NCBI GenBank assembly: GCA_030583705.1
Contig: CP129471.1
Coordinates: 50,506 to 114,505 of the forward strand
Reading direction: 5' to 3'
DNA from: Patescibacteria group bacterium
GTDB lineage: Bacteria; Patescibacteriota; Patescibacteriia; Patescibacteriales; Patescibacteriaceae
Length of the DNA: 64,000 nt
The position numbers were made by a program, and so were the translations under genes. The notes beneath the pieces were generated by a model. That model did not search any database. It saw only the letters and a program-made list of their open reading frames with translations, and had not been told where the DNA came from. Shown in pieces: positions 3,076 through 47,569 of this stretch. Numbering within the stretch: the stretch's first letter is position 1; each line of letters starts with the position of its first letter.

Positions 3076-4296
3076 TTAATTAGAATCTACACCAATCGCC
3101 TCTGAGACGGATTTATAACCGTCTTTTTTAATAAGGTAAGCTAATTCTCGGTTAATTTGAGAAACTACTTGTGGTCCCTGATAGATCATACCGGTTATCA
3201 TCTGCAATAAAGAAGCGCCTGCTCGTATTTTTTCATAAGCGTCTTGTCCGGAAAAAATTCCCCCACAACCGATTATTATAAATTTTTTGCCAGCTAGCTT
3301 ATATATCCTGGCGATTAGCTCGGTGGAAAGTTTAGCTAGAGGCTTGCCACTAAGCCCTCCAACCTCTGGAATAGCTGATGAACCGTTTTTTAACCCCTCT
3401 CTGTTCTTTAGTAGATTAGAACAAATAAAACCGGTTAGGTTATAGTCTTCGGCTATTTTAATTATTCCTCTAAGATCATCTTCGTCTATTTGGGCGGATA
3501 GTTTTAAGAAAATTGGTTTTTTGAAATTATTATTGTTATTATTATTTTCTTGTGTTTTTGTTCTTTCTCCAAATAAGGCGAACATAAGTTTTTCAAGTCT
3601 TTGAGGTTTTAAGAAACTTTCTCCACCAAAGGCATTAGGACAACTTAGATTAATGGTAAGGTAGTCGCCTAGCTGTGTAGTCATTATTTTCTCATAACTT
3701 ATTTTAAAATCATTTATGGCTTCTTGAGTTTCAGCGTTAGCCTGACAATTAGTAGCTGCTAAACTTAAGCCAATCGGCAAAGAAGATTTTTTGTTCTTTA
3801 TATTTCCAAGAACTCGATCAACGCCTTGTCCATTAAGACCTAAGTTTACAACTAAGCTTTTTAATTTTTTAAGTCGCCAAAGTCTTTTACCGGGATTGCC
3901 GGTACAAGCTTGGGCGGTGATGGAACCTATTTCCGCAAAACCAAAACCAACACTTTGAAGTAAATTAACAAGTACACCGTTTTTATCAAAACCGGCAGCC
4001 AAGCCGATCGGATTTTTAAAGTTTATTCCGCCAATATTTTGTTCAAGGGTTTTATTATGAAAGACAAGAAATTTTGATAATATCTTTTTGGCAATTTTTG
4101 AATTACCTAAAAAGGTCCCAAAGGACATCATAAAATTATGTACCTTTTCTTCGTCAAAAAGAAAGAAGATTGGTTTTATAACTCTAGAGTAAAGCCAAGA
4201 TAAGATAATAATTTTAAGAGGTTGTTGGTATGGGGTTTTCATATAAGGTTTACAAAGATTTAAATAATCTTTGGGGCTATTTGAATAAAAAATCAA
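3076..4296 (-). CDS. pyrD: dihydroorotate dehydrogenase, family-2-like architecture
   Basis: Collinear with E. coli PyrD motifs: NPIGLAAGFDKNG, FGFAEIGSIT, GNPGKRLWRL, GLNGQGVD, GGLSGKPL, IGCGGI; N-terminal hydrophobic extension; active-site motif reads LSCPN (Cys) rather than ISSPN; 7-Asn insertion. Confidence 0.8.
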   Translation of the reverse strand: MIFYSNSPKDYLNLCKPYMKTPYQQPLKIIILSWLYSRVIKPIFFLFDEEKVHNFMMSFGTFLGNSKIAKKILSKFLVFHNKTLEQNIGGINFKNPIGLAAGFDKNGVLVNLLQSVGFGFAEIGSITAQACTGNPGKRLWRLKKLKSLVVNLGLNGQGVDRVLGNIKNKKSSLPIGLSLAATNCQANAETQEAINDFKISYEKIMTTQLGDYLTINLSCPNAFGGESFLKPQRLEKLMFALFGERTKTQENNNNNNNFKKPIFLKLSAQIDEDDLRGIIKIAEDYNLTGFICSNLLKNREGLKNGSSAIPEVGGLSGKPLAKLSTELIARIYKLAGKKFIIIGCGGIFSGQDAYEKIRAGASLLQMITGMIYQGPQVVSQINRELAYLIKKDGYKSVSEAIGVDSN

Positions 4297-4335: not shown

Positions 4336-5508
4336 ATGTTAGTATATATTTGTTATTTAATCAACTATTTTAATTATATGCCATTTTTTAAAAAATCCTC
4401 TATTAAAACTATTATTAACCCTAAAAGAGGATTTACTTTAATAGAGTTATTGGTAGTTATAGCCGTTATCGGGATTGTTTCAACTCTGGCTGTGGTGGCT
4501 TTAAATAATTCAAGAGCTAGTGCCAGAGACGCTAAGAGAATTTCCGACTTAAGACAAATTTCCTCAGCCCTTGAGCTTTATTATGCTAATAACCAACAAT
4601 ACCCGGCCTCTCTTAATTTTGGTGAGCCTTTGTCTGATGGAGAATTTGTCTACATGGAAAGCTTACCCAGTAACCCAACTCCTCGTACAGACGGTAATTG
4701 CCCTGATCTTGATTATTCCTACTATTCTTTGGGTAATGATTATTCCATTACGACTTGTTTGGGTTCACCTACACAACAAGCCAGTGTTTCAGCTTCACCT
4801 AGCTTTTCTTTGTCTTCTGCCGGAGATTTTCTTTGCGGGCAAATGATTTTTGATAGAGATGGTTATAATTATCCAACAGTACAGATTGGAGGGCAATGTT
4901 GGTTGGCCGAGAACTTAAAAACCAAAACCAAGGCTAATGGTGTTGCTTTAAGTAATCTATATAACGGTTCGGAAAGAGATTGTATAGCCTTGGGTGATGT
5001 AAGGGGTACGGAAGAAGATTGTTCGGCCGGTTATACTCTTTATTCTTGGGCAGCGTCTATGGACTTTGCTCCTTCTTGTAATTTAAACGATTGCCAAGCC
5101 AGTATTACTAGTCCGCACCAAGGTATTTGTCCAGATGGTTGGCATCTGCCGACAGATGATGAATGGCATACCTTGGAAATGTTTTTAAAGGATCCTGCTT
5201 CTACTTGTAACCCAACTCGTCCTGCTCATTGGCAATGTGGACCAGCTGGCGATAAGATGAAAGTTGGCGGTTCCGCTGGTTTTAACGGTATTATGGCTGG
5301 CAAAAGAGATACATTAGGGGATACTTTTGCTGCCAGACGAGAAGGAGCTCATTTTTGGTCTGCCAGCCAAAAACCAGATGATCCGCAAAACGGTGCTTTT
5401 CTTCGTTTAATGTGGCGTTCGGAAACCGGTGGTTGGGTTACTAATACGGTTGGTAGGACTGGTTTTGAAAAAAGAGACGGCTTATCTGTTCGTTGTGTTA
5501 AAAACTAG
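4336..5508 (+). CDS. secreted prepilin-type N-terminal domain fused to Cys-rich FISUMP-like domain (likely start at M 4378)
   Basis: Class III signal 'KRG|FTLIELLVVIAVIG', pilin alpha-1 helix and D-region 'DGNCPD..TCLGSP', then 'GGQCWLAENL', 'YSW', 'CPDGWHLPTDDEW', 'VRCVKN' (Fibrobacter succinogenes major paralogous domain pattern). Confidence 0.7.
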   Translation: MLVYICYLINYFNYMPFFKKSSIKTIINPKRGFTLIELLVVIAVIGIVSTLAVVALNNSRASARDAKRISDLRQISSALELYYANNQQYPASLNFGEPLSDGEFVYMESLPSNPTPRTDGNCPDLDYSYYSLGNDYSITTCLGSPTQQASVSASPSFSLSSAGDFLCGQMIFDRDGYNYPTVQIGGQCWLAENLKTKTKANGVALSNLYNGSERDCIALGDVRGTEEDCSAGYTLYSWAASMDFAPSCNLNDCQASITSPHQGICPDGWHLPTDDEWHTLEMFLKDPASTCNPTRPAHWQCGPAGDKMKVGGSAGFNGIMAGKRDTLGDTFAARREGAHFWSASQKPDDPQNGAFLRLMWRSETGGWVTNTVGRTGFEKRDGLSVRCVKN

Positions 5509-5527: not shown

Positions 5528-5953
5528 TTATTTCCTACTATTTTGATTAATTAAAACTCCCAAGAAAGTTATTACCAAAATAATATTTTTTATAATATAC
5601 TGCCCGAAAAAGCTAGGTACTAAAGGAGCGTCCCAAGCGCTTTTTGGCAAAAGAACAAGAGGTCCGGTGGTGGTAATAATGTGAATTATAAAAAGGTAGG
5701 TTACAAACTTCGTCATTTTTGGTATTAAGAACAATATACCAATAATAACTTCAAAAAAACCATAAAGGATAAGAAAGAGGTTAAAGTCCATTATGTTTAT
5801 AGTGGCGTAAAAAAGCTCTTCTACTGCTCCCTCGGCCGGGGATACTCCAAAGATCTTTAAGGCTCCAAACCAAATATAAATCAGAGCCAAACCAACCCTA
5901 GCGGCTTTTTCATAATGAGAAAAATTAAGTTTTTTAATTATTTTTTCCAGCAT
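5528..5953 (-). CDS. DoxX/YkgB (DUF417)-like small membrane protein
   Basis: 4 TM; 'RVGLALIYIWFGALKIFG' resembles DUF417/DoxX N-terminal motif. Confidence 0.4.
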   Translation of the reverse strand: MLEKIIKKLNFSHYEKAARVGLALIYIWFGALKIFGVSPAEGAVEELFYATINIMDFNLFLILYGFFEVIIGILFLIPKMTKFVTYLFIIHIITTTGPLVLLPKSAWDAPLVPSFFGQYIIKNIILVITFLGVLINQNSRK

Positions 5954-7184: not shown

Positions 7185-7289
7185 GAAAGGCAGTTAAACT
7201 ATAATTTACTTTAAAATATATTGCCTAAAAAAATATTTTCATATATAATTGAATTTGTTTATTTTTAATATAGTTATTTTTTAAAACAT

Positions 7290-7769
7290 ATGAATGAAGA
7301 AAAAGAAGTAAAAGAAGTTTCAAATCCTGATTCTTCGTCTCGTTTTTTAATGTGGTTATTTGTGGCTTTAGTGCCAGCGGTGGTTATTGTCTATGCCGTT
7401 ATGAATCGTCCCAAACCGCAAGATCAGCTTTTGGTTGCAAATAGCAATGAACAAAATGTTATTACTGAAGAAAAATATCGGGATGGTAGATATGAGGTAA
7501 TTGGTGAATACATTGCTCCAAGCGGACTTGAACAAATTAATGTTTCTGTAGTGTTAAATGATGGAGTTATTACTGAGTCTGAAGTAGGGGCTTTATCCGG
7601 TCATCCGGTTTCTCTTAAATTACAAGAAGCTTTTATCGGTGGACATAATGAAGAAGTGGTTGGTAGAAACATTGATGAAGTTAATTTGGGTGTTATTGCC
7701 GGTTCTTCCTTAACTCCTCGTGGTTTTAATGATGCTTTGGAAAAGATTAAAGCTGAAGCTGCTTTGTAA
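7290..7769 (+). CDS. membrane-anchored FMN-binding (NqrC/RnfG-like FMN_bind) domain protein; candidate flavinylation site Thr in 'AGSSLTP'
   Basis: N-terminal single TM; 'RYEVIGEYIAPSGLEQINVSVVLNDGVITESEV' matches FMN_bind core pattern; C-terminal 'VNLGVIAGSSLTPRGF' aligns with the 'VDAVSGATxTS' flavinylation segment; sits immediately upstream of apbE. Confidence 0.45.
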   Translation: MNEEKEVKEVSNPDSSSRFLMWLFVALVPAVVIVYAVMNRPKPQDQLLVANSNEQNVITEEKYRDGRYEVIGEYIAPSGLEQINVSVVLNDGVITESEVGALSGHPVSLKLQEAFIGGHNEEVVGRNIDEVNLGVIAGSSLTPRGFNDALEKIKAEAAL

Positions 7770-7819
7770 TCATTATTTTTGTATTATTTTTTGCTTATTG
7801 ATTTTTATCTTTTTACTTA

Positions 7820-8701
7820 ATGGAATATTCTTCACATAATTTCTCTGCTATCGGTACTGACTGGACTATTGATCTGCCTTCTAATCTTTCTGCGGCTGAA
7901 CAAAGTTCTTTAGTGGAAAAATTAAAAGACAGACTTGAGCTTTTTGATTTTACTTATTCTCGTTTTAGGGCAGATTCAATTATTACTCTTTGGTCCAAAA
8001 AGGCCGGGCAATATCCTTTACCAGATGATGCCGGGCCTCTTTTGGCTTTATATGAAAAAGTATATTCTTTAACGGATGGCTTAGTTAATCCTTTAATTGG
8101 CAAAACCATTGCTTCGGCCGGTTATGACGCTAATTATTCTTTACGTGCATCTTCTGTTTTAGAAGAAACCCCTTCTTGGGAAGATGTTTTATCTATTGAT
8201 AAAGACTCCATTACTTTTAAAAAACCGGCGATACTTGATTTAGGGGCAGCTGGCAAAGGCTATGCCATTGATCTTTTGTCTGACATATTGACTGAACATG
8301 GGCTTGAATCTTTTATGATTAACGCCGGTGGAGATATTTTTCGTAAGGAAGAAACCGATAGTGTGGTACGGGTTGGCTTAGAAGATCCCCAAGATTCTTC
8401 CAAGGTAATTGGGGTAGCATCTTTACATAACGGCAGTCTTTGTGCCTCAGCCGGTAATCGTCGGGCCTGGCCAGGTTTTCATCATATTATTAACCCGAAA
8501 ACTAAAAAGTCTCCCCAAGATATTATAGCGGTTTGGGTTTCGGCCGAAACAGCCGCTTTAGCGGATATTTTAGCTACTGCTCTTTTCTTTTGTCCCCCAG
8601 AAAAACTTAAGACGACATATGATTTTGAATATGTTATAATTGGAAAAGATCGCTCGGTAAAATATTCCACTAATTTTAAGGGTGAGTTGTTTTTAAAATA
8701 G
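7820..8701 (+). CDS. apbE: FAD:protein FMN transferase ApbE (Ftp)
   Basis: 'YSRFRADSII' N-terminal motif and 'LDLGAAGKGYAIDLL' (GxxGKGYAxD) characteristic of ApbE. Confidence 0.75.
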   Translation: MEYSSHNFSAIGTDWTIDLPSNLSAAEQSSLVEKLKDRLELFDFTYSRFRADSIITLWSKKAGQYPLPDDAGPLLALYEKVYSLTDGLVNPLIGKTIASAGYDANYSLRASSVLEETPSWEDVLSIDKDSITFKKPAILDLGAAGKGYAIDLLSDILTEHGLESFMINAGGDIFRKEETDSVVRVGLEDPQDSSKVIGVASLHNGSLCASAGNRRAWPGFHHIINPKTKKSPQDIIAVWVSAETAALADILATALFFCPPEKLKTTYDFEYVIIGKDRSVKYSTNFKGELFLK

Positions 8702-8767: not shown

Positions 8768-10240
8768 ATGTTAAAGGCCATAGATTCTTTTGTTAACCAA
8801 ATAACCATGTATCGCCTGGTTTTGTATGGACTGGTTATTTTAGCTACCTTATCTGTTATTCTCGGTTTTCTTAATGTGTTGCCTTACTCCGGTTTTGAAC
8901 TTTTAACTTCTTTACTTATTCTTTCTTTAGTTTGTTTTCTTGCCACCAAGATCCTTTCTCGTTTTTATAATGTTGAATCTTCAGTCATTACGGCTTTAAT
9001 CCTCTTTTTTATTTTTGAACCATCCATTGAAAAAACCGGACTTTTAACTTTGGCAGCTATTGGTTTAACGGCTGTTTTAAGTCGTTATATTTTAGCTTGG
9101 CGCGGAAAACATATCTTTAATCCGGCAGCTTTAGCGGCGGTAATTTTTGGTTTAACTGGTAGCGGTTTGGCAGTTTGGTGGGTTGGTAGCGAATTTTTAT
9201 TATTGCCTTCTCTTATTTTGGGCTTTTTGGTAACTAAAAAGATTAGACGAGCTTCTTTGGTTTCATCTTTCATTATTACCGCTACGGTTGTTATGTTAGT
9301 CATTACTTACTTCTCCGGTTATTCTCTAGTTGAAGCTCTAAGGGTTATCTTGTTCTCTTGGCCTCTTATTTTCTTTGCGACCATTATGTTAACTGAACCT
9401 CTAACTACACCGCCTCGTAAAGAAACTCAGTTAGCCTACGGGGTAATTGTTGGTTCGCTTTTTTCCGCCCAGTTTCATTTTGGTCCGATTTATCCGACAC
9501 CGGAGTTAGCTTTGGTTATAGGTAATATTTTTTCTTTTATTGTAAGCAATAAGGGACGATTTAATTTAAGATTGCGTCAAATAGTTAACCTAACACCCTC
9601 CATTAAAGAGTTTGTTTTTAGCCCAGATAAGCCTTTGGTTTTTTTATCGGGGCAATACATGGAATTTACGGTTCAGCCCAAGGGAGCAGATAACCGCGGT
9701 AATCGTCGTTATTTTACCTTAGCCTCTTCCCCAACCGAACAAGAAGCCAGGCTAGGTATTCGCTATAATCAACCCAGTAGTTCTTTTAAGGAAAAATTAA
9801 AATCTCTTAAACCAGGAGACAGAGTAGTGGCTACCCAGGCAATGGGTGATTTTATTTTACCAAAAGATTTATCCACCCCAATGATCTGGCTGGCTGGTGG
9901 TATAGGGATTACTCCTTTTCGTAGTATGGCTAAGTTTGTTTGTGATAATAAACAAACTCTGGATTGCTACCTTTTTTATCTGGCAGCTCAGCAAGAAGAT
10001 TTTGTTTATAGGGAAATTTTTGAAGAAGCGGCTAGTTATGGTCTTAAAACTTTTTACCTTGAAAGTACTAAGGACAAGCCTTTTGATTTTTCTCATTTAA
10101 GCGATTATGTTAAAGATTATGAAAAAAGGTTATTCTATATTTCCGGGCCTAATGGTTTAGTAGAGAGTTTTTCATCAGCGATTATTAAGAATGGTGTGTC
10201 CGGCAAACAAGTTATTAAGGATTATTTCCCTGGTTTTTAA
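8768..10240 (+). CDS. fusion of RnfD/NqrB-like membrane domain and ferredoxin-NADP reductase-like FAD/NAD(P)H-binding domain
   Basis: N-terminal ~260 aa polytopic domain with 'GKHIFNPAAL' (RnfD NPFNPA motif) and 'IMLTEPLTTPP' (cf. RnfD ILTDPVTASTT flavinylation site). C-terminal domain with 'RRYFTLASSP' (RxYS FAD motif) and 'GGIGITPFRSM' (NAD(P) binding). Confidence 0.6.
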   Translation: MLKAIDSFVNQITMYRLVLYGLVILATLSVILGFLNVLPYSGFELLTSLLILSLVCFLATKILSRFYNVESSVITALILFFIFEPSIEKTGLLTLAAIGLTAVLSRYILAWRGKHIFNPAALAAVIFGLTGSGLAVWWVGSEFLLLPSLILGFLVTKKIRRASLVSSFIITATVVMLVITYFSGYSLVEALRVILFSWPLIFFATIMLTEPLTTPPRKETQLAYGVIVGSLFSAQFHFGPIYPTPELALVIGNIFSFIVSNKGRFNLRLRQIVNLTPSIKEFVFSPDKPLVFLSGQYMEFTVQPKGADNRGNRRYFTLASSPTEQEARLGIRYNQPSSSFKEKLKSLKPGDRVVATQAMGDFILPKDLSTPMIWLAGGIGITPFRSMAKFVCDNKQTLDCYLFYLAAQQEDFVYREIFEEAASYGLKTFYLESTKDKPFDFSHLSDYVKDYEKRLFYISGPNGLVESFSSAIIKNGVSGKQVIKDYFPGF

Positions 10241-10254
10241 TTACCTTAAATATT

Positions 10255-11463
10255 ATGTCTACTGCGGCTAAACAGATAAAAGACAACTGTCTTTATTGCG
10301 GTAATAATCCGGTATCTCATCACTGGACTTGGTTTAATGAAACAATGGCTGTAATCTTTAATCCCCTTATTGCCTTCTTAACGGATAATTTTTTAATGCA
10401 AAGATTTAATCGTCTTTTTGATCATATTTTTTCTTTAGTTGGGAAAATTTTAGAAAAAGCCGGCTTTCTTTCTTACGTAAAAGAAAGACCAAATAAATTA
10501 AGTCATAGAACAGAAGTTTTATGGGATGAAGCGGATAGTCGCGGCTGGCGTTTTGAGCGGTTAATTTTTTTTGGGAAAGACCTAGACTATTACCGAGTTT
10601 TTGTTAAAAACGATCATCCAATTCTTTTTTCCGGATTACCAAGACCGCATTATATGCCGGGACTAGGAGATTGGTGGATAGATGATAAATACCTTGTTAA
10701 GAAGGTATTATCAGCTAAAGGCCTACCAATACCAAAAGGTGGAGGGTTTAGTAACTATAATTCATTGTTAAGAGTTTTTAAGAAATTAGATAAGCCAGTA
10801 ATTATTAAACCAAGATTGGGATCAAGGGGTAGACATACTACGACTTTTATAAATTCTGAAGAAGAGTTGTTTAAGGCCTATAAAAGAGCTAAACAACTTT
10901 GTTATTGGGTAATTATGGAAGAACACCTAATAGGTGATGTCTATCGCGGTACTATGATAGGTAGTAAGTTAGTTGGAGTATTAAGTGGTAATCCACCAAG
11001 AATCACCGGAGATGGCCAAAGCACTATCCTACAACTAATTGATCTTAAAAACCAAAACAGACACGAGGGAGTTAGTGTTTTTGTTCCCTCAGATTATACT
11101 AAAGAGTTTTTAAAAAAAATCGGTTATAATCTTAATTCAGTTTTACCTATGGGTACAACCATTGACCTAACCGAAAAGATAGGTGTTTCATATGGAGGCT
11201 CAAGTGCTGAAGTAACACAACAAACGCATCCTAAGATTAAAGATATTCTAGAACAGGCGGCTAAAGCTATTGGTGACCCGATGATTGGCTTTGATTTTAT
11301 TATAAAAGACATTAGCGCTGACCCGGATAACCAAAAATGGGGAATTATTGAATGTAATGGATTGCCCTTTATAAACCTACATCATGACCCAATAGAAGGA
11401 CCACCCATTAACGCAGCCGCTGCAGTCTGGGATTTTGTAGAAAACAATCTTAATTATTATTAA
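10255..11463 (+). CDS. ATP-grasp family protein (RimK/cyanophycin-synthetase-N-terminal-like) with Cys/His-rich N-terminus
   Basis: 'DDKYLVKKVLSAKGLPIPKG', 'VIIKPRLGSRGRHTTTF', 'EEHLIGDVYRG', 'GIIECNGLPF' consistent with ATP-grasp fold; N-terminal 'CLYCGNNPVSHHW'. Confidence 0.5.
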   Translation: MSTAAKQIKDNCLYCGNNPVSHHWTWFNETMAVIFNPLIAFLTDNFLMQRFNRLFDHIFSLVGKILEKAGFLSYVKERPNKLSHRTEVLWDEADSRGWRFERLIFFGKDLDYYRVFVKNDHPILFSGLPRPHYMPGLGDWWIDDKYLVKKVLSAKGLPIPKGGGFSNYNSLLRVFKKLDKPVIIKPRLGSRGRHTTTFINSEEELFKAYKRAKQLCYWVIMEEHLIGDVYRGTMIGSKLVGVLSGNPPRITGDGQSTILQLIDLKNQNRHEGVSVFVPSDYTKEFLKKIGYNLNSVLPMGTTIDLTEKIGVSYGGSSAEVTQQTHPKIKDILEQAAKAIGDPMIGFDFIIKDISADPDNQKWGIIECNGLPFINLHHDPIEGPPINAAAAVWDFVENNLNYY

Positions 11464-11556: not shown

Positions 11557-12831
11557 GTGATGCTATATAAAAATAAAGAGAATCAAGAAAAAAAGAAAAC
11601 ACCTCAACCATTTGAGGTGTTTAATAGTGGGTTAAATATTGAGTTAAATAGTATGTTAAATAGAAACTTAAACACTAGATTATACAGCAGCAAAGCCTTT
11701 ACTACACAATATAATAAAACAGCAAAAGCCTTCACCCTCATTGAACTATTAGTAGTTATAGCCATCATAGGTATATTATCCACTCTAGTAATAGTAGCTC
11801 TAGGCAATTCACGAGCAGGTGCCAGAGACGCTAAAAGACTAAATGATCTAAAAGCCATGGCTAATGCTCTAGAGCTATATTATGCAGATAATAACTCATA
11901 CCCTGAAGCAGATAACTTTTCTCCTGGAGCTACTTTTGAAGCCGGTGGAGTAGTTTATATGGGCAAAGTACCCAATAACCCTACTCCTCATACAGACGGA
12001 GGTTGTCCAGATAATGATTATACTTATACTCAAATAGAATCAGGACAAAGTTACATTATCTCAACTTGTCTTGGTACTCCAGCAGATAATTCTCCTTATC
12101 CTTCCTCAACTGCTGTTTCATACTCTCCCTCAGGTATGTTTCAATGTGGACAGAACATGGAAGACTTAAGAGATAATAAAACTTATCAAACTGTCCAAAT
12201 TGGTAACCAATGTTGGATGAAAGAAAACTTAGCTTATCTACCATCAGTTAGTCCATCCACTGCGGGTGACGCTTCAATTCCTTATTACTATGTTTATAAT
12301 TATCAGGGTACAGATGTTCAGGCAGCTAAAGTCACCGCTAATTACACTACTCATGGGGCTCTCTATAACTGGCCAGCGGCTACCACCGCTTGTCCTATCG
12401 GCTGGAAACTTCCTACTGATGAAGAATTTAATGTCTTGGAACAATATACTGTAGCGACGATTGCTAGCACTGCCACCCAATATGCTTGTAATACTTCAGT
12501 TACTAGTTGGCCAAGATGTGCGGATAATCTTAATGGAGATCAGGGTGGAACTTTTGGGGTTGGTAAATCTCTAAAGAAAGCTGGACAAGGATCAGGTATT
12601 GGAGCTGGCGATGATTTAGTTGGTTTTTCCGCTATGTTATCTGGCTCTCGTGCCACCTCTTCTGGAGGTATTTTTGCTAATATGCCTGTTTACGGCCTTT
12701 TTTGGTCAGCCCCGCAGTCTACCTCGACTGAAGCTTGGAGTCGGCTTCTGCTCTCCACTTATTCGACAATCTATCGAGGTGCGCTTAATAAAGCTAGTGG
12801 TTATACAGTCCGTTGCCTCAAAGATTCTTAA
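11557..12831 (+). CDS. secreted prepilin-type N-terminal domain fused to FISUMP-like domain, paralog of 4336..5508 (likely start at M 11653)
   Basis: 'AKA|FTLIELLVVIAIIG', 'DGGCPDNDYTYT..STCLGTP', 'GNQCWMKENLAY', 'ALYNWPAA', 'CPIGWKLPTDEEF', 'YTVRCLKDS'. Confidence 0.7.
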   Translation: MMLYKNKENQEKKKTPQPFEVFNSGLNIELNSMLNRNLNTRLYSSKAFTTQYNKTAKAFTLIELLVVIAIIGILSTLVIVALGNSRAGARDAKRLNDLKAMANALELYYADNNSYPEADNFSPGATFEAGGVVYMGKVPNNPTPHTDGGCPDNDYTYTQIESGQSYIISTCLGTPADNSPYPSSTAVSYSPSGMFQCGQNMEDLRDNKTYQTVQIGNQCWMKENLAYLPSVSPSTAGDASIPYYYVYNYQGTDVQAAKVTANYTTHGALYNWPAATTACPIGWKLPTDEEFNVLEQYTVATIASTATQYACNTSVTSWPRCADNLNGDQGGTFGVGKSLKKAGQGSGIGAGDDLVGFSAMLSGSRATSSGGIFANMPVYGLFWSAPQSTSTEAWSRLLLSTYSTIYRGALNKASGYTVRCLKDS

Positions 12832-16253: not shown

Positions 16254-17146
16254 AACTCTCATATCTCTATGATGTATTTAAGCAACATATTAAATCCTAT
16301 AAGTGGCTAGCGCTTTCTTGTTTGTTTGCGTAGAGGCCGCTTAACAAGCGGTTTTTTTGTTCCCTTAAAAGTATTTTGTCCGCTCGCGGAATTGTTACTT
16401 CGGTAATAATTCCACGACCGTATAAAATACGGTTACCTTAAAAATTGAACACGCGAATAAAGTAACTGTAATTTTGTAAGTTAAGAGTCCAATTAATGAT
16501 GATCTGCATTTTTGAAAACAAAGATGTAGGAAAATCTCGTAAGGGTGTATGGTGGATGCCTTGACTCAAGAAGACGATGAAGGACGTAGCAGTCTGCGAT
16601 AAGCCTCGGTTAGGTGACAAGCAACCTTTGACCCGGGGATTTCCGAATGGGGAAACCTATCCTGTTGAAGACAGGATGTCCGCATGCTGAACACATAGGC
16701 ATGTGAGACGAGTACTCGGTGAACTGAAACATCTTAGTAGCCGAAGGAAAAGAAAACAAATTTAATCTTTTATCAAGATTGACGATTTTTCGTCTGTTTT
16801 GATAAGAGATTGCGATTCCCTGAGTAGTGGCGAGCGAAAGGGGAGCAGCCTAAACCGTTTAGACCATATATACTGGACTCACTTCGGTGAGAAAAGTATG
16901 TTGAAGGAATTAGGTCCATATGTTTTTACGGTGTTGTAAGAGTGCCATGATTGCTACCTAATGCGGCAAGACGGCGCTATTGAATTATTAGTCGAAGGAG
17001 CTGGAAAGCTCGGCCAAAGACGGTGATAGCCCGGTAGACGAAAATAAGACAGGCGTTGTGATGGCAAATCTTAAGTACTGCGGGACTCGTGAAATTCCGT
17101 GGGAAGCAGGGTCGACTATGACCCAAGGCTAAATACTTCTTGAGAT

Positions 17147-17183
<37 letters not shown>

Positions 17184-18692
17184 CATCCCGGTGAGGGAGA
17201 TGAAATAGTATCTGAAACCATATACTTACAAGCAGTCGGAGCCTGTTACCTTCGGGTAATCGGGTGACGGCGTGCCTATTGAAGAATGAGCCAACGAGTT
17301 TGTTGTATGCGGCTTGATTAATTCCGTTAAACGGAAGCAGTCATAGTGAAAGCGAGGGTTAACCGCCCGTACTCTTATTTATTAGAAGTGGCAATAATTT
17401 GTCCTTACGCAAGTAAGGCTTTGTTGTTCTTCTATTAGATAAGAAGGTCGCATGCACAAGACCCGAAGCCGGGTGATCTAACCATGGCCAGGTTGAACCT
17501 TGACGAAAGTCAAGGGGAGGACCGAACCCGTAAGTCGTGCAACACTTTGGGATGAGCTGTGGTTAGCGGAGAAATTCCAATCGAACTCGGCAATAGCTGG
17601 TTCTCCTCGAAATAGCTTTAGGGCTAGCCTCGAGCGCTGAACATGGGGGGTAGAGCACTGAATGGGGGTGGGCCGCAAGGTACCTTCTCCAACCAAACTC
17701 CGAATACCCATGCGTGTAGCTCGGGAGTCAGACTATGGGCGCTAAGGTCCATCAGTCGAAAGGGAAACAGCCCAGATCGCCATCTAAGGTCCCTAAATAT
17801 AAACTAAGTGTAAAAGGTGGTGTCGTGACCGCGACAACTAGGAGGTTGGCTTAGAAGCAGCCATCCTTTAAAGATAGCGTAATAGCTCACTAGTCTAGTC
17901 GTCTCGCGCCGAAAATGTACCGGGGCTAAGTTTATTACCGAAGATGCGAACTTGTTACTTAGGTAACAAGTGGTAGAGGAGCATTCCAACGCCGCTGAAG
18001 TCGTGATGTGAGTCACGGTGGAGGTTTTGGAAGAGAGAATGTTGGCATAAGTAGCATAAAGGCGGGTGAAAACCCCGCCCACCGAAAATCTAAGGGTTCC
18101 TGGGCAACGTAAATCGTCCCAGGGTTAGTCGGCCCTAAGGCGAGGCTGCTGTAGTGGCAGCGTAGTCGATGGATGAGCTGGTTAATACTCCAGCACTACT
18201 GTAATTTTCCGATGGGGGGACGAAGTCTCAAGGTTCAAGCGTTTCTATGGTATGAACGTTGTTGTCCGCAAGAGCTGATCCAGGCAAATCCGGATCACCA
18301 AGCTCAAGCGGTTGACTGAAGACAAAGCTTTCGGGCGGCGTCAATTTGAGCTGAGAGATTTTCCAGAAAAGCCTCTAGGGTTAAGATTATAGTATCCGTA
18401 CCGTAAACCGACACAGGTAGATGAGGCGAGAAGCCTAAGGTGAACGAGAGAACCCTCGTTAAGGAACTCGGCAAAACAGCGGGCGTAAGTTAGCAATAAG
18501 CCCTGCCCCGCGCAAGCGGGGCCGCAGCGAAAGATTTCAAGTGACTGTTTACCAAAAACACAGCTCCCTGCTAACTCGTAAGAGGATGTATAGGGGGTGA
18601 TGCCTGGCCAGTGTCCGAACGTTAAGAGGAGAGGTTAGCACTTCGGTGCGAAGCTTTGAATCGAAGCGCGGATGAACGCCGGCCGTAACTAT

Positions 18693-19408
18693 AGAAGCTT
18701 AGGACGACCCTTTGGGTTTAAGCGTTGTAGTTACGTTAAAAAATCTGACTATATGCTGGAAACTCCCGTTAGACAAGCGGTACTCGGTTAAACACCAGTG
18801 AAAATCCGTTTGGTAGGGACAATCAGCAGGAAAGCTAATACTATGTTAAATATACAAAATATTCCGGACCGTATAGGCTATTATTTAGCCGGTTTTACGG
18901 ACGGAGAAGGTAGTTTTATGGTAGTGGTTCGTAATCGCCCGGATTTTCGGGCCGGTTATAAAGTTTCTCTTTGTTTTAATGTTTCTCAGAAAGAAAGTTA
19001 TATTCTTTCTCAGTTTAAAAAACATTTAGCTTGCGGAACTTTAAGATCACGACCTGATGGAGTCTGGTATTTTGAAGTTAATAACTTCAAGGCTATCAGT
19101 GAAAACATCATTCCTTTTTTTGATCGATTTGGTTTTTTGTCGCAAAACAAGAAAAAGCAATACGCTTTATTTAAGCGAGCGGCTTATATTATAAAAACTG
19201 AAACTCATTTGACCTTAGAGGGTTTTCAAAAAATTCTCTTAATACGAAGTCAAATGAATCGTGGTGGAAAAAGAAAAAACTTAGCATCCTCAGAGACTAT
19301 ACGTCAGACCCGTTTACGGGAAGATATAGTCCGACCTTCAGTGAAAGCTGAAGAGCTCAGCAGAAATGTTTGAGCCACTTAACGGCAACGTTAAGGAGTA
19401 ACAAGATG
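18693..19408 (+). mobile_element. group I intron in 23S rRNA (near E. coli position ~1917) carrying a LAGLIDADG homing endonuclease ORF
   Basis: Exon sequence GTAACTAT^AACGGTCC interrupted; 5' exon ends in U, intron ends in G; contains 'gactatatgctggaaactc' core also seen in the 16S intron 1. Confidence 0.7.
18798..19373 (+). CDS. LAGLIDADG homing endonuclease (intron-encoded; probable true start M 18843)
   Basis: 'YLAGFTDGEGSFMVVV' LAGLIDADG motif; located wholly within 23S intron. Confidence 0.75.
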   Translation: MKIRLVGTISRKANTMLNIQNIPDRIGYYLAGFTDGEGSFMVVVRNRPDFRAGYKVSLCFNVSQKESYILSQFKKHLACGTLRSRPDGVWYFEVNNFKAISENIIPFFDRFGFLSQNKKKQYALFKRAAYIIKTETHLTLEGFQKILLIRSQMNRGGKRKNLASSETIRQTRLREDIVRPSVKAEELSRNV

Positions 19409-19422
19409 AACGGTCCTAAGGT

Positions 19423-19749
19423 TGTGTAATTTTACGAAGGTAAGATTATACAAGGACTGGGACCGTTATCTTAAAGTTCGTTACCTGGCTATAATGAAAG
19501 TTGTAGTTGTCCTAAAACACCCAGTAAAATGCGCTAAAATCTTCAAAAGATTTTTGGTACCACTCTCTTTTATGAGACATGGTAAAAATCCGGAAATACA
19601 CGGAGGCAAGGCGCAGGATTAATTAAATATTAATCCCCAGAGACTTAACACTGGGGTCCTAAGATGTAAGACTAGTATCTGAAGTTAACTAGATTATATT
19701 ATGGATAAGATAAAGTCCGGGCTTAATAGATAATATTAAGAAGGACCAG
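19423..19749 (+). mobile_element. second, ORF-less intron in 23S rRNA (near E. coli ~1931), 14 nt downstream of intron 1
   Basis: Exon AACGGTCCTAAGGT^AGCGAAATTCC interrupted by 327 nt; 5' exon ends U, intron ends G. Confidence 0.55.
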
Positions 19750-19797
<48 letters not shown>

Positions 19798-20289
19798 AAC
19801 TTGAAAACTGTCTCAACGAGGGACTCGGCGAAATTACAGGACCGGTAAAGATGCCGGTTAACCATAGCTAGACGAAAAGACCCCGTGAAGCTTTACTACA
19901 GCTTGATATTGGGTTAGGGATATATCTGTTCAGAATAGGTGGGAGCCTTCGGGCGCCAGTGAGATACCACCCTGGTATATTTTTAATCCTCACTTCGATC
20001 CGTGAATCCGGATAAAGGACAGTATCTGGTGGGTAGTTTGTCTGGGGCGGATGCCTCCTAAAAGGTAACGGAGGCGTTTACAAAGGTTGGCTATCTCGGG
20101 ATGGAAACCCGGGAGATAGTGTAAAGGCATAAGCCAGCTTTACTGCAAGACCTACAAGTCGCGCAGTTGCGAAAGCAGAACTTAGTGATCCGACCGTGCG
20201 AAATAGAACGGCGGAAGCTCATCGGATAAAAGCTACTCCGGGGATAACAGGCTAGTCACGCCCAAGCGTCCACAGCGACGGCGTGGTTC

Positions 20290-20322
<33 letters not shown>

Positions 20323-20332
20323 GTGGAGAAGC

Positions 20333-20385
<53 letters not shown>

Positions 20386-20732
20386 CCGTCGTAAGACAGG
20401 TCGGTCTCCTCTCTACTATGGTCGCGGAAATTTGAGAAGGCTCTTCCCTAGTACGAGAGGACCGGGAAGAACGAAGCTCTAGTGTGCCAGTTGTCCTACC
20501 AAGGGCATTGCTGGGTAGCTACCTTCGGTTTAGATAAACGCTGAAAGCATCTAAGCGTGAAGCTGTCTTCAAGATTAGATTTCATAGGTTGGTCAGAGAC
20601 TATGACCTTGATAGGCTCCAGGTGTAAGTCCGGTAACGGATTGAGCCGAGGAGTACTAATAAACCATTAGATTTTCCTACAATTTTGTTTTTAAATCACA
20701 GTCTTTATTCGTGTGTCAATTTATAAGAGTTT

Positions 20733-20861
20733 GATGGCGCCGTCTTGGTGGTTCTTGCGAAGGGGTCACACCTGTTCTCATCTCGAACACAGAAGTTAAG
20801 CCCTTCAGCGCCGATGATACTTGGGCCGCCCAAGCCCTGGGAAAGTAGGTCGCCGCCAGGA
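20733..20861 (+). rRNA. rrf: 5S rRNA
   Basis: 'ggcgccgtcttggtgg..cctgttctcatctcgaacacagaagttaagc..gccgatgatacttggg..gtaggtcgccgccagg' matches 5S consensus. Confidence 0.85.
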
Positions 20862-24578: not shown

Positions 24579-24618
24579 AAGATTAATGTTAATGAACGGA
24601 GAGATTTTTGGAGAGGTT

Positions 24619-25671
24619 TTAAGAGGAGAGTTTGTTTTTAAACCAATTAACCCAAGGTATTTCCATGGGGTTAACTTTGTTTTCAAGAGCTAAATAGTAT
24701 GTTAGCCAACCACCTAATTGCAACATAACCAGGGCTTGGATTAAAGCGTTTGAGCCAACAAGGCTATATGAACAAACAGTAATATTTTGTTTCTTAATAA
24801 CTTCTTTAGTTAAATCAAGTCGTTTATTGATTCTTTTGTCATTAAGGCTTGATTCAAAAAACAAAGCAGCCAGTCTTTTTTTATTGGAGGACGGATACTT
24901 AAGACCTTCCATGGCAAAATGGTTCATTTCGGATAAGACCAAGTAAGAGGCGTAGTTTTTGGCGTTTTCGCACCATTGGTTACGTAGAGTCTTAAGATTA
25001 CCTTCAAATAATGGACCACCGATTAAAATAGTTTCTTTATCTGATAGCTTTTTTGCCAATTTTTTAATTGAAGAGCTATTATTTTTTAGATCTTTGTTAC
25101 TTTTTTTAACTTGTTTGATTAAATCTTTTATTTCTTTGTCTGGTAATTTAATTACTCCGAGTTTTTTAAGTATAAGCAAGAAAGAAGCTAAGGAAAGACC
25201 AAGTCCGGCACGGGGTTGATTAGATGGATTGGTTTTGGTACTAAAACAAAAACGGGAAATATTGTCTTTTTCGGCTTTTTTAAATAAGGTACTGTTTTTA
25301 TCTCCGGTTAAAGCCAGTAGTTGAGCACCTCTTTTTTTAGCTTTGTCATAAGCGACTAAGACTTCTTCGGTAGTTCCGGAATAAGAAGAAAGGATGTAGA
25401 GAGTTTTTTTATTAACATGACCATTAAGTTCATAACCTGGTTCAATAATTAAGGGGATTTTAAGTTTATTTTGCCAAATTGATTTAATAATCTCCGCTCC
25501 AAGATTGGAACCACCCATACCGTTAACAACTATTTTATCTATGTTTTTAACAGAGGGTTTTATGATAAGGTTTTTTTCATCACTAAAAACCGCTGCCATT
25601 TGATCCGGCAACTTACTTAAAGATTCTTCAAAGACTGGGAAACGCATTGAGCGCTTGAGAGCGAGAAACAT
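24619..25671 (-). CDS. bifunctional phosphoglucose/phosphomannose isomerase (SIS domain, archaeal-type PGI/PMI family)
   Basis: 'IVVNGMGGSNLGAEII' SIS motif and overall ~330 aa two-SIS layout. Confidence 0.55.
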   Translation of the reverse strand: MFLALKRSMRFPVFEESLSKLPDQMAAVFSDEKNLIIKPSVKNIDKIVVNGMGGSNLGAEIIKSIWQNKLKIPLIIEPGYELNGHVNKKTLYILSSYSGTTEEVLVAYDKAKKRGAQLLALTGDKNSTLFKKAEKDNISRFCFSTKTNPSNQPRAGLGLSLASFLLILKKLGVIKLPDKEIKDLIKQVKKSNKDLKNNSSSIKKLAKKLSDKETILIGGPLFEGNLKTLRNQWCENAKNYASYLVLSEMNHFAMEGLKYPSSNKKRLAALFFESSLNDKRINKRLDLTKEVIKKQNITVCSYSLVGSNALIQALVMLQLGGWLTYYLALENKVNPMEIPWVNWFKNKLSS

Positions 25672-45738: not shown

Positions 45739-45773
<35 letters not shown>

Positions 45774-46214
45774 ATGTGTCTAAGGCATGCAAGTCGAACG
45801 CGCGTAGCAATACGCGAGTGGCAAACGGGAGAGTAACACATTGGTAACTTACCTTGAAGACGGGTATAGCTCGGAGAAATCCGAGGTAATCCCCGATAGT
45901 CATGGGGGGACATAAGTCATTCCCATGTAAATGGTCCGCCGCTTCAAGAGAGGCCTATGTTCTATCAGCTTGTTGGTAAGGTAACGGCTTACCAAGGCTA
46001 CGACGGATAGCGGGTGTGAGAGCATGACCCGCCTCACTGGGACTGAGAAACTGCCCAGACTCCTACGGGAGGCTGCAGTCAAGAATCTTCCTCAATGGCC
46101 GCAAGGCTGAAGGAGCGACATCGCGTGCAGGAGGAAGCCCTTCGGGGTGTAAACTGCTTTTCTCTGGGAAGAAACAATGACGGTACCAGAGGAATAAGGG
46201 GTTGCTAAACTCGT

Positions 46215-47112: not shown

Positions 47113-47372
47113 GCCAGCAGCAGCGGTAATACGAGTACCCCAAGCGTTATCCGGATTTATTGGGCGTAAAGCGTGCGTAGGCGGTTTATAACATCTCTTG
47201 TTAAATCCCAAGGCTCAACCTTGGGGCTGCGGGAGATATGGATAAACTAGAGACTGGGAGAGGCAAGCGGAATTGCTGGTGTAGGGGTTAAATCCGTTAA
47301 TATCAGCAGGAACACCAAAAGCGAAGGCAGCTTGCTAGAACAGTTCTGACGCTCAGGCACGAAAGCGTGGGG

Positions 47373-47403
<31 letters not shown>

Positions 47404-47482
47404 CGCCGTAAACGATGGATGCTGAGCATTGGGAGTTTCGACCCTCTCAGTGCTGTCTATCTAAGTTAACACCTTAAGCATC

Positions 47483-47524
<42 letters not shown>

Positions 47525-47525
47525 A

Positions 47526-47569
<44 letters not shown>

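What the first reader, a model, noticed from the sequence alone, without database searches (positions are those of the whole stretch)
8768..10240. Single-polypeptide RnfD/NqrB-like membrane domain fused to NqrF/FNR-like reductase domain
In canonical Rnf/Nqr complexes the membrane FMN subunit (RnfD/NqrB) and the NADH-oxidising FAD subunit (NqrF, or RnfC in Rnf) are separate proteins within 6-subunit complexes. Here both functions appear on one 490-aa chain: 'GKHIFNPAAL' and 'MLTEPLTTPP' in the membrane part, 'RRYFTLASSP' and 'GGIGITPFRSM' in the soluble part. No other Rnf/Nqr subunits are present in the window.
Basis: partly seen in the sequence, partly recalled or inferred. Interest (0 to 1): 0.75.

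Follow-up and report, generated by a model that had tools for sequence, protein, structure and literature searches.

The report
Known NQR/RNF-like flavin electron exporter
The gene really does fuse an RnfD/NqrB-type membrane domain to an NAD(P)H-binding reductase domain, but this two-subunit "NQR/RNF-like" system, with its flavin-attaching enzyme next door, was described from genomes in 2021 and 2024 and is common in candidate-phyla-radiation (CPR) bacteria, so it is a new member of a known, still untested kind.

Summary

- The periplasmic loop that carries the flavinylated Thr of RnfD/NqrB is deleted.
- The reductase part lacks NqrF's 2Fe-2S domain.
- The claim that no other Rnf/Nqr subunits are present is wrong. 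A membrane-anchored NqrC/RnfG-like FMN_bind protein (7290..7769, acceptor motif AGSSLT) and the flavin transferase ApbE (7820..8701) lie directly upstream on the same strand.

This three-gene module is the "NQR/RNF-like system" of Méheust et al. 2021 (eLife) and Huang et al. 2024 (mSystems). It is proposed to carry electrons from NAD(P)H across the membrane to an extracytosolic covalent FMN. I found no biochemical study of it.

The family is widespread: 606 clusters at 50% identity, and full-length copies in Patescibacteria, Chloroflexota, Actinomycetota, Alphaproteobacteria and Spirochaetota.

One thing I found is not discussed in those papers. The adjacent ApbE has no export signal in any of about 58 loci, although its presumed target is exported.

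Novelty: new member of a known kind. Interest is modest.

The parts
7221..7249 (+). Promoter-like site (TTGCCT-17-TATAAT, 10 of 12) just upstream of the first gene of the cluster. A weak hint only.
   Evidence: The number of such sites in the region (21) is not above the shuffle expectation (16 +/- 4). No convincing terminator lies between the three genes.
7290..7769 (+). Small subunit, 159 aa. It has an N-terminal membrane anchor (about residues 19-38) and an NqrC/RnfG-like FMN_bind domain.
   Evidence: Pfam FMN_bind is sub-threshold for this protein (E 0.11), but 13 of 14 family members match it (best E 8.7e-5). hhalign to the canonical FMN_bind small subunits of related loci gives probability 96.7%, E 4e-10. 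A homologous small subunit sits next to ApbE and the fusion in related loci.
7698..7715 (+). AGSSLT motif (residues 137-142), the predicted ApbE acceptor site. S140 aligns with the flavinylated Thr of the S-G-A-T motif.
   Evidence: G138, S139, S140 and L141 are invariant in the family. hhalign aligns AGSS with T/SGAT. That it is flavinylated is inferred, not shown.
7820..8701 (+). ApbE-family FAD:protein FMN transferase, 293 aa, with no signal peptide, lipobox or transmembrane helix.
   Evidence: PF02424 E 2.8e-40, with the domain starting at residue 12. The ORF cannot be extended upstream. Leaderless ApbE is also found next to the fusion in about 58 other loci. The E. coli lipoprotein control scores 1.99 in the same hydrophobicity test.
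8768..9553 (+). Residues 1-262 of the fusion: a 10-helix RnfD/NqrB-like membrane domain.
9116..9127 (+). FNPA motif (residues 117-120). N118 probably corresponds to NqrB Asn200, a riboflavin ligand.
   Evidence: N118 and P119 are invariant in 77 of 77 homologues. hhalign aligns the motif with FNPA of RsxD. The NqrB ligand list comes from PMC10643135. The N118-to-Asn200 equivalence is inferred from the shared motif; no NqrB sequence was aligned here.
9158..9190 (+). Short outward loop (residues 131-141, GSGLAVWWVGS) in place of the roughly 80-residue loop that carries the covalent-FMN Thr in RnfD/NqrB.
   Evidence: The A121-to-F142 span is 21-22 residues in 76 of 77 homologues. W137 and W138 are invariant. 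The residue before WW is Val in the window.
9386..9415 (+). MLTEPLTTPP (residues 207-216). It is the counterpart of the T-D-P-V motif of RnfD and NqrB, whose Asp (NqrB D346) hydrogen-bonds riboflavin near the cytoplasmic face.
   Evidence: hhalign aligns LTEPLT with LTDPVT of RsxD. The role of D346 and its sequence context come from PMC10643135. E210, P211, T213 and P215 are invariant in 77 of 77.
9554..10240 (+). Residues 263-490 of the fusion: an FNR-type FAD-binding barrel plus NAD(P)H-binding Rossmann domain, predicted to be cytoplasmic.
   Evidence: PF00175 E 8e-8; NCBIfam flavohaemoprotein, BenC and NqrF matches; PDB sequence hits; Foldseek hits. Motifs: RRYFT 313-317 (nt 9704-9718), GGIGITP 377-383 (nt 9896-9916), SGP 459-461, C-terminal DYFPGF 485-490.
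10255..11463 (+). ATP-grasp ligase, 402 aa, related to the cyanophycin-synthetase and GshAB ligase domain. It starts 14 nt downstream on the same strand. It is a neighbour, not a core part of the system.
   Evidence: It is conserved only in close relatives and absent from most of the 79 loci.

Best explanation
The window carries a complete three-gene 'NQR/RNF-like' flavin-based transmembrane electron-transfer module, probably one operon: small FMN_bind subunit, ApbE, then the fusion.

Proposed mechanism, with each step marked as shown or inferred:
1. NAD(P)H is oxidised by the cytoplasmic FNR-type module of the fusion, residues 263-490, which binds FAD non-covalently. The domain identity and cofactor motifs are shown; the activity is inferred.
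2. Electrons pass to a non-covalent flavin in the site that holds riboflavin in NqrB. That site lies near the cytoplasmic face and is lined by the invariant N118 and E210. The conservation is shown; the presence of a cofactor is inferred.
3. Electrons then reach a covalently bound FMN on Ser140 of the membrane-anchored small subunit. This FMN is proposed to dock in the outward-facing pocket that RnfD/NqrB fill with their own covalent FMN, because the fusion has lost that loop. The loop loss and the acceptor motif are shown. The docking is inferred here and was modelled by Huang et al. 2024 for a homologue.
4. Electrons leave to an unidentified acceptor outside the cytoplasm. This step is inferred.

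ApbE installs the FMN. There are only three Cys and three His, so the wire is all-flavin, with no Fe-S cluster or haem. The net effect would be one-way export of reducing equivalents and regeneration of NAD(P)+, in a CPR bacterium (Patescibacteria, judged from the closest homologues and rRNA features) whose window shows no other Rnf/Nqr subunit. It works like a NOX or ferric reductase, with a flavin membrane domain instead of a haem one.
For: - Domain identities.
- Loss of the flavinylated loop.
- Conservation of the riboflavin-site residues.
- The small subunit is an FMN_bind homologue with an invariant acceptor motif.
- ApbE is adjacent.
- Across 79 loci from at least five phyla, only these three genes are conserved neighbours (fusion 79, ApbE 60, small subunit about 57).
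- The small subunit is exported. It has lipoprotein signals in Actinomycetota and an N-in anchor in CPR.
- A positive-inside reading of the model's loops puts the deleted loop outside and the FNR module inside.
- There are no Fe-S or haem ligands.
- The same architecture and mechanism were proposed in PMC8238504 and PMC11334425.
Against: - I found no experiment on any member in the held literature. The donor (NADH or NADPH), the membrane-domain cofactor, the flavinylation of S140 and the acceptor are all inferred.
- The adjacent ApbE has no export signal here or in about 58 other loci, which is hard to reconcile with flavinylation of an exported domain.
- Pfam matches for the membrane domain (24-26.6 bits against 27.7) and for the small subunit (E 0.11) are sub-threshold in this particular member.
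- No acceptor-related gene is conserved next to the module.
Confidence: 0.7

Rival explanations
1. The covalent flavin is installed in the cytoplasm. One version has the leaderless ApbE flavinylating the linear C-terminal acceptor motif of the small subunit before Sec export. The other has the flavinylated domain actually working at the cytoplasmic face. In both versions the overall NAD(P)H-dependent flavin wire still stands, but the step order or topology differs from the published 'extracytosolic flavinylation' model.
For: ApbE lacks any signal peptide, lipobox or transmembrane helix in the window and in all of about 58 neighbouring ApbE genes, read as maximal ORFs. The N-terminal extension is usually 0-15 residues, and the hydrophobicity score is below 1 in nearly all, with one higher value (1.46, L030) in a probably spurious upstream extension; the E. 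coli ApbE lipoprotein control scores 1.99. Cytosolic ApbEs are known (K. pneumoniae; JBC review PMC12052999). From my own knowledge, not checked here: ApbE can modify short peptide tags.
Against: The small subunit carries lipoprotein signal peptides in Actinomycetota and N-in signal anchors elsewhere, so its domain is outside. Only 3 of 10 actinobacterial signals have a twin-arginine motif, so Tat export of a folded holo-protein is not general. Export of a flavinylated chain through Sec has not been shown. A second, exported ApbE elsewhere in these genomes was not excluded.
Confidence: 0.15
2. The module is an ion pump, or an ion-gradient-driven reverse enzyme. [quoted passage not shown]
Against: Pumping in NQR depends on conformational coupling with NqrD/E and on NqrC movement, and NqrD/E and RnfA/E are absent. 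E210 is better explained as the riboflavin ligand. No Na+-site residues were identified here.
Confidence: 0.08
3. The membrane domain is a channel or transporter of the related urea/ammonium-transporter fold, and the FNR domain plays a regulatory or unrelated role.
Against: Z for RnfD/NqrB is about twice as high. The flavin-site motifs FNPA and TEP are invariant. ApbE and FMN_bind genes are the only conserved neighbours.
Confidence: 0.03
4. The fusion is an artefact: a frameshift or misassembly has joined two separate genes.
For: None.
Against: The identical ORF occurs on independent contigs. Thousands of homologues were reported, and the best 120 listed are near full-length. 77 full-length copies come from diverse genomes, several of them from cultured isolates such as Dictyobacter, Ktedonospora, Mesorhizobium and Agreia.
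Confidence: 0.01

Closest known systems
NQR/RNF-like flavinylation-associated system (Méheust et al. 2021, eLife 10:e66878; Huang et al. 2024, mSystems 9:e00375-24, with an AlphaFold-multimer model of the Ktedonobacter racemifer complex)
   Same: The fusion has the same architecture: an NqrB/RnfD-like membrane domain plus a PF00175 NAD-binding domain. The partner is the same, an NqrC/RnfG-like FMN_bind subunit. ApbE is adjacent. The NqrB/RnfD flavinylated Thr is lost. The reported taxa (CPR and Actinobacteria) match.
   Different: The window belongs to a sub-type whose small subunit has the acceptor motif AGSSLT (Ser acceptor, no upstream Asp) and falls below the Pfam FMN_bind threshold. Its ApbE is about 290 aa. 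The Ktedonobacteria-type loci instead have VDxxSGATxTS and an ApbE of about 247 aa. The window's PF03116 score is just below the gathering cut-off. The family is larger than the 127 genomes reported.
RnfD and NqrB subunits of the Rnf and Na+-NQR complexes (PDB 8ahx_D, 7zc6_D, 7xk3_B)
   Same: The 10-helix fold matches at rmsd 2.6-2.9 Å over 226-235 residues. The FNPA and T-D/E-P motifs that line the riboflavin site of NqrB are present.
   Different: There is no long periplasmic loop and no covalent-FMN Thr. The domain is fused to its own NAD(P)H dehydrogenase. No RnfA/B/C/E or NqrA/D/E partners were found. Sequence identity is 14-23%.
NqrF and other FNR-family reductase modules (flavohaemoglobin, BenC, GcoB)
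   Same: It has the FAD barrel and NAD(P)H Rossmann fold, the R-x-Y/F-T/S and GGxGxxP motifs, and a C-terminal aromatic residue.
   Different: It lacks the N-terminal transmembrane helix and the 2Fe-2S ferredoxin domain of NqrF. The NqrF model scores lower (E 4e-8) than flavohaemoprotein (1e-17) or BenC (1e-16).
NOX and ferric-reductase family, for example Streptococcus pneumoniae SpNOX (PDB 8qq7, 8qt6)
   Same: [quoted passage not shown] The FAD motif RRYFTLASSP resembles the NOX-type HPFTLTSAP motif (recalled from memory, not tested here). SpNOX dehydrogenase domains are among the top structural hits. The function is analogous: NAD(P)H electrons are sent outward.
   Different: The membrane domain has an unrelated fold and no bis-His haem sites; there are only 3 His. 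This is an analogue, not a homologue, in the membrane part.
Listeria-type flavin-based extracellular electron transfer (Ndh2, PplA, FmnB)
   Same: It uses an ApbE-type transferase and an exported protein with covalent FMN as the outward electron carrier.
   Different: In Listeria the membrane step uses a quinone and NDH-2, and FmnB is an exported lipoprotein. Here the membrane step is an NqrB-like flavin domain and ApbE is leaderless.

Membership tests
NQR/RNF-like system (Méheust 2021; Huang 2024) | The N-terminal membrane domain is homologous to NqrB/RnfD (PF03116). | tested here: met
NQR/RNF-like system (Méheust 2021; Huang 2024) | A C-terminal cytosolic NAD-binding domain (PF00175) lies on the same chain. 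| tested here: met
   PF00175 scores 33.3 bits against a cut-off of 22, E 8e-8. The FNR fold is confirmed.
NQR/RNF-like system (Méheust 2021; Huang 2024) | The gene lies in a flavinylation-associated cluster, with ApbE and/or FMN_bind within five genes. | tested here: met
   ApbE is the adjacent upstream gene (E 2.8e-40). The FMN_bind-like gene is the one before it.
NQR/RNF-like system (Méheust 2021; Huang 2024) | A second subunit is a membrane-anchored, extracytosolic NqrC/RnfG-like protein with an ApbE acceptor motif. | tested here: met
   hhalign to canonical FMN_bind subunits gives 96.7%, E 4e-10, aligning AGSS with SGAT. The protein has an N-terminal hydrophobic anchor, and orthologues carry lipoprotein signals. 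Direct comparison with E. coli RsxG was uninformative. The Pfam match of this member alone is sub-threshold.
NQR/RNF-like system (Méheust 2021; Huang 2024) | The flavinylated Thr of NqrB/RnfD is not conserved in the membrane domain. | tested here: met
   The RsxD loop of about residues 135-216, with DGISQAT187, is unmatched. The loop is 21-22 residues in 76 of 77 homologues. The window has Val before WW.
NQR/RNF-like system (Méheust 2021; Huang 2024) | SignalP predicts a signal peptide or lipidation site in at least one target gene (the pipeline criterion of the 2021 paper). | not testable with these tools
   SignalP is not available. The small subunit has an N-terminal hydrophobic segment, and ApbE has none.
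NQR/RNF-like system (Méheust 2021; Huang 2024) | Electrons are transferred one way from NAD(P)H to an extracytosolic acceptor. | not testable with these tools
   This is a proposal in the papers as well. I found no biochemical data.
Canonical RnfD/NqrB subunit of a six-subunit Rnf/Nqr complex | FMN is covalently bound to a Thr (S-G/Q-A-T) in the periplasmic loop. | tested here: not met
Canonical RnfD/NqrB subunit of a six-subunit Rnf/Nqr complex | The gene is encoded with RnfA/B/C/E/G or NqrA/C/D/E/F. | tested here: not met
   phmmer with E. coli RsxA, B, C, E and G found nothing in the window at E <= 10 (sensitivity is low, since RsxD itself did not find the fusion). Across 79 loci no such genes are conserved neighbours. 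Only the NqrC/RnfG-like subunit is present.
Canonical RnfD/NqrB subunit of a six-subunit Rnf/Nqr complex | The 10-helix fold has FNPA and T-D-P motifs at the riboflavin site. | tested here: met
   The Asp is replaced by the invariant Glu210.
NqrF | An N-terminal transmembrane helix and a 2Fe-2S ferredoxin domain precede the FNR module. | tested here: not met
   The NqrF model matches only residues 342-422. The whole protein has three Cys and no cluster motif.
NOX / ferric-reductase family | A six-helix ferric-reductase membrane domain has two bis-His haem sites. | tested here: not met
   The membrane domain has the RnfD/NqrB fold, and the protein has only 3 His. The resemblance is functional only.

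The most novel reading that the evidence does not exclude
In this whole family the cognate ApbE works in the cytoplasm. The covalent FMN would then be put on the small subunit's C-terminal acceptor motif before the chain is exported; alternatively, the system has a topology nobody has considered. This would give cells without flavin exporters, such as CPR bacteria, a way to build an extracytosolic flavin wire. The three-gene module would then be the main membrane route for re-oxidising NAD(P)H in these reduced genomes.
Probability: 0.25. Interest if true: 0.6.

Novelty: new member of a known kind. Interest (0 to 1): 0.33.

Why it matters
As a discovery the fusion is not new. It is the defining protein of a published system, although that system is known only from computation.

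It still matters for three reasons.
1. It is one of the few membrane redox modules seen in CPR/Patescibacteria genomes. It may be how these fermentative, often episymbiotic cells dispose of reducing equivalents or reduce iron or other extracellular substrates.
2. It is a minimal, two-protein, all-flavin version of the NqrB/RnfD electron path. That could make it a tractable model for the flavin-to-flavin steps of Na+-NQR and Rnf.
3. The consistent lack of an export signal on the adjacent ApbE is an unexplained point about where and how the covalent flavin is installed. Simple experiments could address it.

Tried and rejected
- A profile of the small-subunit family against PDB sequences found nothing meaningful.
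- hhalign of that family against E. coli RsxG gave an uninformative alignment. The link to FMN_bind was made instead through per-member Pfam scans and through hhalign to the canonical small subunits of related loci.
- The N-terminal profile against PDB sequences gave only a weak RnfD hit (E 0.037). The structural search was needed.
- Foldseek with the full-length model returned only FNR-type hits, so a separate model of the N-terminal domain was made.
- The afdb50 library was not available.
- The supplementary table of the 2021 paper that lists NQR/RNF-like clusters is truncated in the held copy. I could not check how that paper scored ApbE signal peptides.
- phmmer with E. coli Rsx proteins against the window found nothing, but it is insensitive at this distance.
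- Tat export was considered as an explanation for the leaderless ApbE. Only 3 of 10 actinobacterial small subunits have an RR motif, and no CPR one does, so it is rejected as a general answer.
- A flavinylation site inside the fusion's FNR motif (T-L-A-S-S-P) was considered. It is the ordinary FNR/NOX FAD-binding motif, so the idea was rejected.
- The downstream ATP-grasp gene was considered as part of the system. It is conserved only in close relatives, so it was rejected.
Full report
**1. The observation**

The ORF listing returns a single ATG-initiated ORF at 8768..10240 (+) of 490 aa, exactly as reported. The four quoted peptides are at residues 113-122, 207-216, 313-322 and 377-387.

The protein is not an assembly accident.
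- The identical sequence is encoded on contigs from three independent sequencing runs, with the same neighbours.
- More than 100 full-length homologues at 44-49% identity were listed out of thousands of hits.
- A scan of one genome per GTDB species returned 80 loci. 79 of them carry a recognisable fusion, and 77 are full-length.

**2. What the two halves are**

AlphaFold2 on a 32-sequence alignment gives a confident model (pLDDT 87.5, pTM 0.84). It has a helical domain at residues 1-259 and a beta-barrel plus Rossmann module from residue 264.

C-terminal half:
- It matches PF00175 (E 8e-8).
- It matches many FNR-family NCBIfam models over residues 263-487: flavohaemoprotein 1e-17, BenC 1e-16, NqrF 4e-8.
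- It matches FNR-type PDB chains by sequence and by Foldseek (E about 1e-15; flavohaemoglobins, GcoB, SpNOX, NqrF FAD domains).
- The cofactor motifs are invariant in 77 homologues: R313, R314, G295, Q296, G377, G378, G380, T382 and P383.

N-terminal half:
- It scores just under the Pfam cut-off for NQR2_RnfD_RnfE (24 bits for the whole protein, 26.6 for residues 1-261, cut-off 27.7).

**3.

(a) The flavinylated Thr is absent. hhalign of the N-terminal family against E. coli RsxD aligns 225 columns. It leaves the whole RsxD loop of about residues 135-216, which contains DGISQAT187PLD, without a counterpart. In 76 of 77 homologues the corresponding outward segment is only 21-22 residues. In the window it reads GSGLAVWWVGS, with Val before the invariant WW. 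Huang et al. 2024 reported the same loss.

(b) The reductase part is a bare FNR module. The protein has three Cys and three His in total, so it has neither the 2Fe-2S domain of NqrF nor any haem site.

(c) Other Rnf/Nqr-type parts are present. The gene directly upstream (7820..8701) is an ApbE flavin transferase (E 2.8e-40).

The gene before that (7290..7769) encodes a 159-aa protein with an N-terminal hydrophobic anchor and a C-terminal domain.
- Its family has invariant G138-S139-S140-L141.
- 13 of 14 family members match Pfam FMN_bind (best E 8.7e-5).
- hhalign to the canonical FMN_bind small subunits of related loci gives 96.7% probability (E 4e-10). It aligns AGSSLT with T/SGATxT, which makes S140 the predicted FMN acceptor.

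The classic subunits RnfA/B/C/E were not found, although that search has low sensitivity.

**4. It is a published system**

Méheust et al. 2021 defined 'NQR/RNF-like' systems as flavinylation gene clusters encoding an NqrB/RnfD (PF03116) plus NqrF-type NAD-binding (PF00175) fusion. They found 127 clusters, mainly in Actinobacteria and the candidate phyla radiation. [quoted passage not shown]

Huang et al. 2024 described the system as two subunits: an NqrC/RnfG-like subunit and the fusion. They modelled the Ktedonobacter racemifer complex with AlphaFold-multimer. They noted that the flavinylation site of NqrB/RnfD is not conserved, and that the small subunit's FMN may occupy a flavin site of the membrane domain.

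Full-text searches found no other paper on the system and no biochemistry.

**5. The family and its neighbourhood**

A profile of the N-terminal domain finds 606 clusters (50% identity) at E <= 1e-30 and 1413 at E <= 1e-10 among 1.84 billion representatives. Most are about 500 aa.

Full-length loci come from many Patescibacteria lineages and from four other phyla:
- Chloroflexota (Dictyobacter, Ktedonospora, Anaerolineae);
- Actinomycetota (Agreia, Herbiconiux, Arthrobacter, Cellulomonas and others);
- Alphaproteobacteria (Mesorhizobium, Kaistia, Phyllobacterium, Methylocapsa);
- Spirochaetota.

Clustering all neighbouring ORFs of 79 loci shows that only three genes are conserved: the fusion (79 loci), ApbE (60) and a small subunit (about 57). 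A two-component system and a MacB/HlyD-type exporter recur in a minority of loci.

There are two sub-types.
- The window type has an ApbE of about 290 aa and an AGSSLT small subunit. It occurs in CPR and Actinomycetota.
- The second type has an ApbE of about 247 aa starting MKQTRILMGMPI and a canonical VDxxSGATxTS small subunit (PF04205, E 1e-10). It includes the Ktedonobacteria modelled in the literature.

**6. How it most likely works**

Reading the model's loops by the positive-inside rule gives this topology (sequence, helices):
- the N-terminus, the KKIRR loop and the TEPLTTPPRK loop face the cytoplasm;
- the shortened loop 131-141 faces outward;
- the last helix ends in the cytoplasm, where the FNR module must be to meet NAD(P)H.

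In V. cholerae NqrB, the covalent FMN lies near the periplasmic face and riboflavin lies nearer the cytoplasmic face. Riboflavin is hydrogen-bonded by Asp346 (in the sequence F-F-M-A-T-D-P-V-S) and by Asn200, among others (PMC10643135). In the fusion the corresponding M-L-T-E-P-L-T and F-N-P-A motifs are the most conserved parts of the membrane domain. E210 and N118 are invariant in 77 of 77.

The best-supported path is therefore NAD(P)H, then FAD in the FNR module, then a non-covalent flavin in the riboflavin-type site, then covalent FMN on S140 of the small subunit docked at the outward pocket vacated by the lost loop, and finally an unknown external acceptor.

Shown here are the domain identities, the motif conservation, the loop loss, the gene linkage and the export signals. 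The cofactors, activities, docking and acceptor are inferred.

Functionally this resembles NOX and ferric reductases. SpNOX dehydrogenase domains are among the best structural matches, but the membrane domain is unrelated to theirs.

**7. An unexplained point**

The window's ApbE begins its Pfam domain at residue 12 and cannot be extended upstream. I analysed the ApbE genes next to the fusion in about 58 loci, taking the longest possible ORF for each.
- None has a signal peptide, lipobox or transmembrane helix.
- The extension before the domain is usually 0-15 residues.
- The maximal 15-residue hydrophobicity is below 1 in nearly all, with one higher value (1.46, L030) in a probably spurious upstream extension. 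The E. coli ApbE lipoprotein control scores 1.99.

Yet the small subunit is clearly exported. Ten actinobacterial orthologues have lipoprotein signal peptides with a lipobox Cys. The CPR and Chloroflexota ones have N-terminal anchors with Lys or Arg on the N side. Only 3 of 10 actinobacterial signals contain a twin-arginine motif, so Tat export of a pre-flavinylated folded protein is not a general answer.

The two papers do not discuss this. The 2021 pipeline kept only clusters with a predicted signal peptide in at least one target gene. That may also explain why it counted only 127 genomes.

Possible explanations:
- the linear acceptor motif is flavinylated in the cytoplasm before Sec export;
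- a second, exported ApbE is encoded elsewhere in these genomes;
- ApbE is exported by an unrecognised route.

I could not distinguish between these.

**8. Verdict**

The architecture is a member of a known, computationally described and experimentally untested kind, and it is common.

Interest is modest (0.33). What remains of value is the lack of any biochemistry, the possible role in CPR redox balance, and the ApbE localisation puzzle.

Noticed in passing
window 7820..8701; loci L001-L085, the ApbE gene immediately upstream of the fusion: The ApbE next to the fusion has no signal peptide, lipobox or transmembrane helix in the window or in any of about 58 related loci from five phyla. Its presumed target, the small subunit, is exported: it has lipoprotein signals in Actinomycetota and N-in anchors elsewhere. 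The two papers on the system do not discuss this.
   Followed up: partly
loci L007-L084 compared with window 7290..8701: The family has two sub-types. The window type has an ApbE of about 290 aa and a small subunit with AGSSLT, which is sub-threshold for Pfam FMN_bind. The second type has an ApbE of about 247 aa starting MKQTRILMGMPI and a small subunit with canonical VDxxSGATxTS.
   Followed up: yes
window 9167..9181 (residues 134-138, LAVWW) and the same columns in 77 homologues: In 50 of 77 homologues, mostly the second sub-type, the residue just before the invariant WW of the outward loop is Ser or Thr preceded by Ala ([S/P]-A-[S/T]-W-W). This is reminiscent of the ApbE acceptor motif. The window has Val there. 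By the hhalign to RsxD this position is not the counterpart of Thr187.
   Followed up: partly
window 16529..20861 and 45741..48044: The rRNA genes are unlinked and interrupted. The 23S spans 4151 nt against a 2925-nt model and contains a LAGLIDADG_1 ORF (18798..19373), followed by 5S. The 16S is split into two matches around a LAGLIDADG_2 ORF (46374..46979). From my own knowledge, this is typical of CPR/Patescibacteria.
   Followed up: partly
window 10255..11463: An ATP-grasp ligase related to the cyanophycin-synthetase and GshAB ligase domain (E 1.5e-54) starts 14 nt after the fusion on the same strand. It is conserved only in close relatives.
   Followed up: partly
window 4336..5508 and 11557..12831: Two pilin-like proteins, each with an N-terminal methylation motif and a Fibrobacter succinogenes major domain, flank the cluster region.
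   Followed up: no
window 3076..4296 (-) and 5528..5953 (-): A dihydroorotate dehydrogenase has an N-terminal extension of about 83 residues, which might make it a membrane-associated type that needs an electron acceptor. A DoxX-family membrane protein lies a few kb upstream of the flavin module.
   Followed up: no
window about 10070..10110 (residues about 435-448 of the fusion): The window protein lacks a segment of about 10 residues in the NAD-binding domain that most homologues have (alignment columns 454-463). A few other homologues (P0016, P0031, P0055, P0110) also have a gap in this region, not always the same length.
   Followed up: no
loci L041, L060, L022 and others: In a minority of loci of the second sub-type, a histidine kinase and OmpR-type response regulator pair (15-17 loci) and a MacB-type ABC exporter with a HlyD-type adaptor (9-14 loci) lie near the module. 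Neither is present in the window.
   Followed up: partly
window 21582..24686 (-): A 1034-aa protein with four lamin-tail domains and a PKD domain, probably a surface protein.
   Followed up: no
loci L006, L008, L011, L028: Several MAGs titled 'uncultured Gammaproteobacteria bacterium' carry clusters closest to the window's CPR-type cluster (L006 also has the RadC gene in synteny). The taxonomic labels of these records look doubtful.
   Followed up: no
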